64,000 bases of DNA from the NCBI GenBank assembly GCA_012295275.1, contig CM022677.1:20088001-20152000 (forward strand), given 5' to 3'. Source of the stretch: Chrysomallon squamiferum (taxonomy: Eukaryota; Animalia; Mollusca). How positions within the stretch are numbered: position 1 is the first letter of the stretch; each line of letters opens with the position of its first letter. Shown piece after piece: positions 19,601-22,600 of the stretch. The notes beneath the pieces were generated by a model, which was not told the origin of the DNA, did not search any database, and saw only the letters and a list, made by a program, of their open reading frames with translations. The position numbers and the translations under genes are program-made.

Positions 19601-22600
19601 GGGCGAGAGAGAGAGAGAGTTTTTTGAGAGAGAGAGAAGAGAGAGAGAATTTGATTAATTTTGATGTTAAATAGTTTCTCATTTTTTTTGTCATAAAAGA
19701 AAAGTCTCAATGCTGCCTATTTATTTCAGTTTGTATCTTTTTTGCTGGTGCGGGGGAGGTTCTTTTTTTCTTCACCCCTAACAAATCCTGCCTGACCACA
19801 GGGCTGTCAACAAAAACAATGACAGGTTTTAATCTTCTTTCCTGAAGAAGTAAATTTGATTAATTTTGATGTTAAACAAGAAAGAAATTGTGGATTTTGT
19901 AAGTCAAAATAATTTTTTTTTTATCTTAATGATACACCCAAAAAAATTCAAATGTTACAAATTAAAATACAATTCATACTCTACTCAAACATATAAAAAC
20001 AATAATTCCTCAGTTTAACACAAACAATATAAAAAGATACCAAATTTCGAAAACAACACAAACCTTAAAAAAAATAAAAAAATAAATAAAATAGAAAAAA
20101 AAAGTATGACACAAAAAATCAAAAACACACTGACTCCAAAACATTACTAATCTGAACATCCAATTTTATCTGATTTCAAAAAAACCACTTCACTAACCTG
20201 ATTATCAAAAACAAAAACACTTCACTAACCTGATTACTCAAAAACAAAACCACTTCACTAACCTGATTATCAAAAACAAAAACACTTCACTAACCTGATT
20301 ATCAAAAACAAAACCAGTTCACTAATCTGATTACTAAAAACAAAACCAATTCACTAATCTGAGTACTAAACACAAAACCACTACACTGATCTGATTACTA
20401 AAAACAAAACCACTACACTGATCTGATTACTAAAAACAAAACCACTTCACTAATCTGATTACTAAACACAAAACCACTTCACTAATCTGAGTACTAAACA
20501 CAAAACCACTTCACTAATCTGATTACTAAACACAAAACCACTTCACTAATCTGATTACTAAAAACAAAACCACTTCACTAATCTGATTACTAAACACAAA
20601 ACCAAAATCATCTTCACAAAACCACTTCACTAATCTGAGTACTAAACACAAAAAACACCACTTCTGACTAAACTGAAACCACTTACTAAAACACAAAACC
20701 ACTTCACTAATCTGAGTACTAAACACAAAACCACTTCATTAATCTGAGTACTAAACACAAAACCACTTCACTAATCTGATTACTAAACACAAAACCACTT
20801 CACTAACCTGATTATCAAAACAAAACCACTTCACTAATGTGATTATCAAAAACTAAACCACTTCACTAATCTGATTATCAAAAACTAAACCACTTCACTA
20901 ATCTGATTACTAAAAACTAAATACCTGAACTTGGCACTGAGGTCTGAGATCTTCGTCTTGTCGACGCGGTGGCCTGGCTCCACGGGCGTGGCCGTGCTGC
21001 GGGTGAAGCGGTAGGGGTCATGGCCGGGACTCCGCTCCCGCCCCGAGGACAGCCCCATCGCTCCGAACTTCTCGCGCAGCTTCGTGTCGTCGTGCTTGTT
21101 GGACGGGTGGCTGACGTACTTGCTGTACGAGTCGCTGCTGTGCGAGCTGGAGTCGTTGTGAGCCTGACATGAACAAGTAAACAAGTAAGTAAACAGACAG
21201 ACAGACAGACAGACAGACACAGGTAGATAGGCAGGTAGATAGGTAGAACCTGTAAACAAGTAAGAAACAGACAGACAGATAGACAGGTATATAGACAGTC
21301 ACTACTATATGAGGAGGACTCATTGTGAGCCTGACGTGAACAAGTAAACAAGTAAGTAAACAGACAGACAGACAGACAGACAGGTAGGTAGGTACATAGA
21401 CAGTCACTACTATGTGAGGAGGAGTCATTGTGTGCCTGATGTAAACATGTAAATAAAAATAAAAATAGTAAACAGACAGACAGACAGACTGACAGACAGA
21501 CAGAGACAGATAGATAGATATAGATAGGTAGGTAGCTGGGTGGTAGATATTTAATAAATTTAATGAGTAAATAAATAAATAAATACGTAAGTAAGTAAGC
21601 AAATAAGCAAACAAGAAAAATGTGAATCAAACCAATAAAAAAGTTAAAAAAAAAAAAAAAAAATAAAAAAGTTAGTTAAATTAATTAAAACAAAAATAAA
21701 TAAATGAAATAAATAAATCTAACAAATCTGCAAACCACACACTCACAAGAACATACAGACACACACACTCACTGACAAGCACTCAACACGTTTGTACACG
21801 TACAAAAGACACACACACACACACACATACAAACGTTAACTGAAAACTTTGACTGTACAAACCCTGGGTTCGTTGGTGTGTACGGGTGGGGGGTGGCTGG
21901 GGGAGTTGTGGATGGTTGCGGTCTTGTTGGGGATGTAGTCAGCATGGTAGAGTTCCACTGAAGCAAACCTGTCTGGGTGGGAGTCTGCAGAGACTGAGGA
22001 TAAGCTGGAAAATAATAAAGTAAGAAAATTTAAAAATTTAAAAATTAAATGTAATTAGATAAGTAAGGAAATTGTATTTTATCCCCAATAACAAAAAAAA
22101 AAAAAAAAAAAATAAAAAAAAAAAAAAAAAAAAAGAAGCTGAAGGAAAAAAAGAAAAAGAGAAATGAAAAATGCAGTGTAGCTTTCAAATCCATCAATAA
22201 TATGTGTATCTTATAGTTGTGTACATGCATGTGTGTGTGCGACAAAGCTGATGAAAAACAATAAAATTTAAATTAATGAATGCTGGAAGTGATGATATTG
22301 CGTACAAGATAAACCAAATATATTTTAAAACTATTAAACAGGCACACAAACACATGGTGTGTGTGTAAATAATTAATAATTGATTATATCCAGAAAGATA
22401 CACACACGGCACACTACATACCACACACATTAATAATAATAACAATGAGTAAAACAGTATTTACCCTCAGGCATTCTGGACCTAAGGCGCTCACTGGGGG
22501 TGATTGTAGCGTAGGGGTCTATGTTGGCTCGACTGTGAGAATACCGTGGCATACTGTCTCCGTAGTATGACGGGTAGTAGTGATCTTCTGGCCGTATCTC

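What the first reader, a model, noticed from the sequence alone, without database searches (positions are those of the whole stretch)
21130..21450. Intronic exon echo that differs from the live exon only at synonymous sites
Seen: the live exon starts GCT CAC AAC GAC TCC AGC TCG CAC AGC AGC GAC. The copy at 21435, with an intact cag acceptor, reads GCA CAC AAT GAC TCC TCC TCA CAT AGT AGT GAC. Both encode [11 protein letters not shown]: 8 nucleotide differences in 7 codons and none non-synonymous, including a two-base AGC/TCC serine swap. Five of the six single-base differences put G/C in the live exon. A second copy at 21330 shares most of these codons plus two replacements. A neutrally decaying copy should not look like this. 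Inference: either the copy is a fossil of the ancestral exon and the live exon was rapidly recoded towards GC, or the copy was or is itself translated (old exon start, alternative mini-exon, or copy from a diverged allele or paralog). No strong donor follows the copies, and they lie 167 and 272 nt upstream, out of frame with the live exon.
Basis: partly seen in the sequence, partly recalled or inferred. Interest (0 to 1): 0.78.

Follow-up and report, generated by a model that had tools for sequence, protein, structure and literature searches.

The report
Frozen exon start in snail intron
An intron of a vent-snail cell-junction gene holds two short copies of the next exon's first 11 codons, a known kind of likely untranslated splice-site repeat, and the older copy differs from the working exon only at silent positions, likely because it kept an earlier sequence while the working exon shifted towards G and C.

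Summary
In detail: copy A (21435-21403, minus strand) differs from the live exon start at 8 of 33 bases in 7 codons, none changing the peptide; copy B adds two replacements. The gene is ZO-1 of a likely peltospirid vent snail. The copies are 'mirages' (tandem duplications of an intron end plus exon start, described in amphioxus); 5 of 21 exons tested have them. No in-frame donor, shifting unit lengths and replacements in B argue against translation; the RNA test had little power. The live exon is the outlier: GC3 71/78 against 544/993 elsewhere, while copy A (5/11) matches ordinary exon starts (74/171). A relative shares the copy's base at the one codon that could be read. Best reading: the copy is a snapshot and the live exon went through a strong GC-ward episode, probably biased gene conversion (0.5). 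Weak points: only a roughly 30-fold boost fits, three differences are CpG-type, the relative's contig did not lay on copy A, and A itself was not seen in other runs. Capture from a diverged allele, or plain divergence plus a best-of-seven pick, remain open.

The parts
20925..21163 (-). Live ZO-1 exon (239 nt, phase 0 start), GC3 71 of 78 degenerate codons, highest of 21 exons
   Evidence: donor spliced in RNA contig of X8
21164..21214 (-). Live acceptor and intron tail; 50 of 51 aligned bases identical to the tail of copy B
21250..21296 (-). Third, acceptor-only partial copy (ends ttacag at 21250), no exon part; makes the B-to-live spacing 167 rather than 105
21298..21330 (-). Copy B of exon codons 1-11 ([11 protein letters not shown]), polymorphic at codons 8 and 9 in other runs
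21331..21381 (-). Acceptor and tail of copy B
21403..21435 (-). Copy A of exon codons 1-11 ([11 protein letters not shown]), synonymous-only differences, GC3 5 of 11
21436..21490 (-). Acceptor and older tail of copy A: 7 differences in the last 24 aligned bases and a 7-nt indel against the live tail
21863..21981 (-). Upstream ZO-1 exon whose donor should join 21163
   Evidence: homology; junction not seen in RNA contigs
20181..20921 (.). 32-bp minisatellite, 23 copies, abutting the live exon's donor
32791..32823 (-). Mirage of exon 32692 (33 nt, 6 of 9 differences at third positions)
33139..33187 (-). Older mirage of exon 32692 (49 nt with a 1-nt insertion)
24962..24987 (-). Mirage of exon 24814
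24335..24432 (-). Two mirages of exon 24286 in a 73-bp tandem repeat; the nearer one also shows an AGC/TCT serine swap
1422..36992 (-). ZO-1 / polychaetoid gene (PDZ-PDZ-PDZ-SH3-GuK), part lying in this window

Best explanation
The two copies are a tandem duplication of the ZO-1 acceptor plus 34 exon bases that is likely never translated, and copy A likely preserves an earlier exon start while the live exon was likely driven towards G and C at silent sites by a strong local episode of GC-biased gene conversion. Steps: (1, shown) intron tail plus exon start are duplicated upstream; (2, inferred from near-identical B and live tails and the 105-nt spacing) copy B arose by re-duplicating the unit 'old exon part + spacer + live tail', which is why its tail is new and its exon part old; (3, inferred) splicing uses the last acceptor, the copies drift neutrally, and replacements appear in B; (4, shown) the live exon is GC3-saturated up to its first codons, unlike other exon starts; (5, inferred) purifying selection let through almost only silent changes on the live side, so a young copy and a fast-changing exon differ at synonymous sites; (6, inferred, untested) the force is biased conversion at a recombination-prone, repeat-flanked exon rather than codon selection.
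For: GC3 71/78 in the live exon against 544/993 in 20 other exons, p=2e-11. First 11 codons: live 10/11, copy A 5/11, exons without mirage 74/171. Relative 'organism B' (run X10) has the copy's T at codon 10, and T where the live exon has C at 4 of its 5 readable differences. At codon 18 three conspecific runs and the relative have T and the window C. Tail A versus live tail: 4 differences with G/C on the live side, 1 opposite, 2 neutral, so the skew is not confined to codons. Oldest copy at three other exons: third positions differ 15/33, first and second 11/66 (p=0.003); where the live base is G/C 9/14 versus 5/29. One GC-ward replacement at a conserved site, Thr59 (ACG) against Asn in 11 of 15 homologs. 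Exon-specific GC-ward episodes (mean exon 267 bp, fitted equilibrium GC3 94%) are documented in rodents (PMC12290510, section read).
Against: The boost implied by the exon's GC3 at equilibrium is only 3-5 fold; simulations with 3-10 fold give 0-0.008, no better than neutral, and 30 fold gives 0.05-0.06. Codon 10, the one polarised site, is a CpG in the live exon, so parallel loss is possible. The AGC/TCC swap is GC-neutral and is not explained by biased conversion. Codon 9 is AGC (live state) in the B-type copy of runs X2 and X8, so at least that difference may be decay in the copy. The G/C-side excess would partly arise at equilibrium from AT-biased decay of copies. Exons with a mirage do not have richer starts once this exon is removed (22/43 versus 74/171, p=0.39). 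No recombination data.
Confidence: 0.5

Rival explanations
1. The copy was captured from a long-diverged working version of the exon (another allele or introgressed lineage through unequal crossover, or a once-functional duplicate exon later truncated), so both sides were under coding constraint while they diverged.
For: Explains synonymous-only divergence and the serine swap at a site that is Ser in 15 of 15 homologs without a fast clock; a second AGC/TCT swap in the copy at 24359. By eye, amphioxus BflGb6 mirage units D3-D5 differ from their own haplotype's exon at 6 places before the break, all silent, 3 matching the other haplotype's exon (PMC3087553 supplement 4). A near full-length decayed exon copy lies at 19841-19662 of this gene.
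Against: Present silent variation in this exon is 3 sites in 79 codons among 4 samples, far below 7 in 11 codons; reported diversity of Chrysomallon is 0.0077 (PMC7736800 passage; species assignment inferred). Only one ortholog contig of the relative lay on the exon and 6 of 6 Gigantopelta isoforms carry one version. It gives no reason for the 5:0 direction.
Confidence: 0.24
2. An old copy and the live exon simply diverged on both sides; AT-biased and CpG mutation hit the C-rich third positions of the copy, slippage turned TCC AGC TC into TCC TCC TC, and the reader picked the cleanest of several copies.
For: 9 of 14 C in the live 33 nt are third positions (table); all 3 CpG are lost in the copy; the other copies carry many replacements (10 synonymous, 16 replacement codons) and their third-position share 23/36 is not clearly above 0.5 (p=0.07); best of 7 reaches 0.016-0.08.
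Against: Single-copy probabilities 0-0.012 before adding the serine swap; it requires an exon start that was already GC3-saturated, which is itself unusual (p=0.0015), and a parallel change in the relative at codon 10.
Confidence: 0.18
3. Copy A or B is used today as an alternative acceptor or mini-exon and is translated.
For: Intact cag acceptors; A to B is 105 nt and open; peptide of A is unchanged.
Against: Both are out of frame with the live exon; the only phase-0 GT sites are GTCTGT (+54 from A; none of 21 real donors has C at +3) and GTTCTA (+81 from B); unit length differs between haplotypes; B has replacements at a site that is Asp in 15 of 15 homologs; the one RNA contig over B runs through its acceptor unspliced.
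Confidence: 0.04
4. Copy A is an assembly product (haplotype chimera or consensus error); only B-type copies are real.
For: A with its own tail was seen in none of 3 conspecific runs; the assembly lacks an intact version of the next exon that RNA shows.
Against: B-type copies with most of the same silent differences are in 3 runs (X2, X8, X5); errors would not keep a peptide; contigs drop alleles.
Confidence: 0.04

Closest known systems
Amphioxus 'mirages' (Adh3, globins BflGb6 and BflGb9, troponin C, PGBD5); PMC3087553 passages and supplement 4, PMC3902484 one passage
   Same: Tandem duplication of an intron 3' end plus exon 5' start upstream of the real exon; cryptic AG kept; variable unit number between haplotypes; outermost unit most diverged; no sign of altered splicing.
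   Different: Only two to three units; much deeper exon-part divergence (8 of 33) with a one-way GC skew against a GC3-saturated live exon; a mollusc. The passages read do not discuss codon position of differences, although the pattern is visible in their supplement.
Exon-specific gBGC episodes in murine rodents (PMC12290510, abstract and section 6 read)
   Same: Cluster of silent AT-to-GC changes in one exon of about 240 bp, GC3 above 0.9, occasional AT-to-GC replacement.
   Different: There detected on a species tree and tied to short-lived hotspots; here inferred from an in-cis copy and one relative, in a snail, with no recombination map.
Duplicated (mutually exclusive) exons; recalled, no call
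   Same: Homologous exon sequence with its acceptor upstream of a working exon, silent divergence.
   Different: Copy covers 34 of 239 nt, has no matching donor or phase, and no second isoform is on record in the nearest annotated relative.

Membership tests
Mirage (splice-junction minisatellite) | Repeat unit spans an intron-exon boundary of the host gene | tested here: met
Mirage (splice-junction minisatellite) | Head-to-tail copies next to the authentic junction | tested here: met
   105-bp period, 2.2 copies; third partial unit
Mirage (splice-junction minisatellite) | Length or copy variation between haplotypes | tested here: inconclusive
   8-nt insertion and other letters in the X8 contig, B-type only in 3 runs; contigs cannot count copies
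Mirage (splice-junction minisatellite) | mRNA uses only the authentic splice site | tested here: inconclusive
   no joint into the copies, but the expected upstream junction was not shown either
gBGC episode | Excess of synonymous AT-to-GC substitutions on one branch in one exon | tested here: inconclusive
   5:0 against copy A, 4 of 5 against a relative, one site polarised by two references
gBGC episode | Bias also in flanking non-coding and non-synonymous sites | tested here: inconclusive
   tail 4:1; one A-to-C replacement
gBGC episode | Local recombination hotspot or transmission bias | not testable with these tools
   no map, pedigree or allele frequencies
Alternative or mutually exclusive exon | Compatible donor and phase | tested here: not met
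Alternative or mutually exclusive exon | Junction reads or second isoform | tested here: inconclusive
   contigs only; 6 of 6 relative isoforms carry one version

The most novel reading that the evidence does not exclude
Mirages act as built-in time capsules: each freezes an exon start, and comparing it with the live exon reads off the direction and speed of silent change without an outgroup. Here the capsule records a near-complete, exon-limited GC sweep (tens of times the neutral rate), set off by the repeat arrays that flank the exon, in an invertebrate genome where GC3 climbs with exon length because only long, conserved exons give alleles enough homology to convert.
Probability: 0.2. Interest if true: 0.7.

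Novelty: new variant of a known kind. Interest (0 to 1): 0.42.

Why it matters
The repeat class is known and the copies are probably inert, so there is no new coding element. The value is as a marker: if copies like this are snapshots, the many mirages of repeat-rich invertebrate genomes give a genome-wide, outgroup-free test of whether exon-level GC3 differences come from biased gene conversion. They are also a warning for annotation: a synonymous-only intronic copy with an intact acceptor is not evidence of a hidden exon.

Tried and rejected
Metagenome search for orthologous DNA gave 1 locus of 547 candidates, a 29-residue 52% match (L001) not followed up. Laying the relative's run X10 on copy A alone gave no contig; the tool warns this can be false, but a near-identical start would have been expected to lay, so it is at best neutral and mildly against 'outgroup equals copy'. 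In one search, 10 of the relative's 15 differences lie near the ends of the aligned piece and are not listed, so codons 1-9 could not be read. RNA run X9 had no cover on A. The upstream exon had no cover in any conspecific run, so no splice junction on the acceptor side could be tested. Donor-side copies: 1 of 21 exons at 2 of 100 shuffles; treated as chance. 'Mirage makes the exon start GC-rich' not supported without this exon. Strand-biased C-to-T decay raises the echo-only probability to 0.012 at most. Indirect selection on the copy through exchange with the live exon was considered and dropped by argument only: exchange frequent enough to be selected would also erase the silent differences. 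Five short or weak copies (31989, 32239, 32336, 31039, 30398) were left out; the 24286 copies were cut to 25 nt by my choice. Paper searches found no paper on synonymous-skewed mirages or exon-level GC episodes in molluscs; the library lacks most subscription journals.

Full report
Setting. The finding lies on the minus strand of a ZO-1 (polychaetoid) gene: one exon matches the ZO-1 guanylate-kinase domain, and the exon in question is 94% identical to ZO-1 of Gigantopelta aegis, the best of 21 hits among 48 candidates. The organism is therefore likely a peltospirid vent snail; Chrysomallon would fit the AT-rich, repeat-rich DNA (10.17% tandem repeats, PMC7736800 passages), but this is inferred. 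No whole genome was available.

Observation. Confirmed base by base. Copy A (21435) differs from the live start (21163) at 8 of 33 bases in 7 codons, all silent; copy B (21330) at 9, with two replacements. Three of the six single-base differences remove the three CpG of the live sequence. For six single-base differences to be all silent, simulations gave 0-0.0013 with decay of the copy alone, up to 0.012 with strong strand-biased C-to-T change, and 0-0.006 with both sides changing at equal rates (the serine swap was left out). As the best of 7 longer copies in this gene this becomes 0.016-0.08.

Anatomy. The array reads tail A, copy A, spacer, tail B, copy B, spacer, acceptor-only copy, live tail, live exon. 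Tail B matches the live tail at 50 of 51 bases, whereas tail A differs at 7 of its last 24 and by a 7-base indel. The simplest account is one old duplication (A) and a later duplication of the 105-base unit 'exon part, spacer, live tail' (B), so B's new tail does not date the exon part. The same thing recurs: 5 of 21 exon starts match their upstream intron (0-1 of 100 shuffles), against 1, 1 and 0 of 21 in the three control directions. This is the 'mirage' repeat of amphioxus (PMC3087553 passages; PMC3902484 passage; the original Adh3 paper is known to me only through these). An earlier AI note on this genome pointed me to the name.

Function. Both copies are out of frame with the live exon. 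GT sites after them are out of phase or unlike the gene's 21 donors; a crude consensus score does not separate them from real donors (5-6 of 9 against 5-8), but none of the real donors has C at +3. B changes an Asp that is invariant in 15 of 15 homologs. All 6 Gigantopelta isoforms carry one copy of the peptide. In RNA run X8 one contig splices the live donor to the next exon, and one crosses B's acceptor unspliced; no joint was listed, but the expected upstream junction was not shown either, so this test is weak.

Reality in other animals. B-type copies were found in runs X2, X8 and X5. In X2 and X8 codon 8 is CAT (as in A) and codon 9 AGC (as in the live exon), so B's Tyr is a recent change and codon 9 varies among copies. 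Laid on A alone, 2 of 4 runs gave one contig each, with 8 and 9 other letters and a B-type tail (counts checked). Copy A itself is thus unconfirmed outside the assembly.

Direction. The live exon is the outlier: GC3 71/78 against 544/993, 10/11 at its start against 74/171 at starts without a mirage, while copy A has 5/11. A relative's contig (X10) aligned over 119 bases with 15 differences, of which 5 are listed: all silent, 4 with T against live C, including codon 10 where it agrees with the copies. That site is a CpG, the other codons of interest were hidden near the alignment end, and the same contig did not lay on A alone. In the oldest copy at three other exons, third positions differ at 15/33 and first or second at 11/66, the excess lying where the live base is G/C (9/14 versus 5/29). 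Live third positions therefore change faster than neutral copy sites across this gene, and A is the extreme case.

Mechanism. I favour an untranslated snapshot plus a strong GC-ward episode in the live exon (0.5). Biased gene conversion is preferred to codon selection because the intron tail leans the same way (4 to 1), one conserved Asn has become Thr by an A-to-C change, neighbouring exons differ sharply, and exon-specific episodes reaching about 94% GC3 are documented in rodents (PMC12290510 section 6). The difficulty is strength: equilibrium GC3 implies a 3-5 fold boost, which does not make the pattern likely; about 30 fold is needed. The serine swap is unexplained. Capture from a diverged working allele or lineage (0.24) explains the swap, echoes what I read by eye in the amphioxus supplement (6 silent differences, 3 shared with the other haplotype) and an earlier AI note on another organism, but present variation here is 3 silent sites in 79 codons. 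Plain divergence with CpG loss and a lucky pick gets 0.18; current translation and assembly artefact 0.04 each.

Novelty. The structure is a known kind in a new group; the variant feature is deep, one-way, silent divergence from a GC-saturated exon. Searches found no paper on this; apart from the four papers named I saw search listings only. Interest 0.42: no new coding element, but a cheap, testable way to read silent-site evolution from repeats within one genome.

Noticed in passing
window 19841-19662 and 19620-19474, minus strand: The exon KEDQKPV...ENSNR of the Gigantopelta protein is present only as one decayed and one garbled copy; an RNA contig of run X8 splices the 21163 exon to an intact version. 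Either the assembly lost the exon or collapsed an array here.
   Followed up: partly
window 34971-18907, 21 exons: GC3 rises with exon length (Spearman 0.81; 0.79 without the live exon) and with distance from splice sites (0.46 within 15 nt, 0.77 beyond 80 nt, live exon excluded); heterogeneity chi-square 125 on 20 df.
   Followed up: partly
window 32823, 33187, 24987, 24432, 24359, 31989, 32239, 32336: Further acceptor-side mirages at four exons; none convincing on the donor side.
   Followed up: yes
window 21110, 21020, 20966: Three silent G/C versus A/T variants in the live exon among four samples; at 21110 the window differs from all four runs (private allele or assembly error).
   Followed up: partly
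window 7232-17509: About 10 kb of a roughly 100-bp satellite with higher-order structure inside the intron between exons at 18907 and 1628.
   Followed up: no
window 27669-27658, minus strand: Possible 12-nt micro-exon with clean AG/GT between exons 28140 and 25822, where Gigantopelta isoforms differ by four residues.
   Followed up: no
window 23324-22605: An exon for about 19 residues of the Gigantopelta protein was not located in this intron.
   Followed up: no
PMC3087553 supplement 4: By eye, amphioxus mirage units differ from their live exon mostly at third positions and share silent states with the other haplotype.
   Followed up: partly
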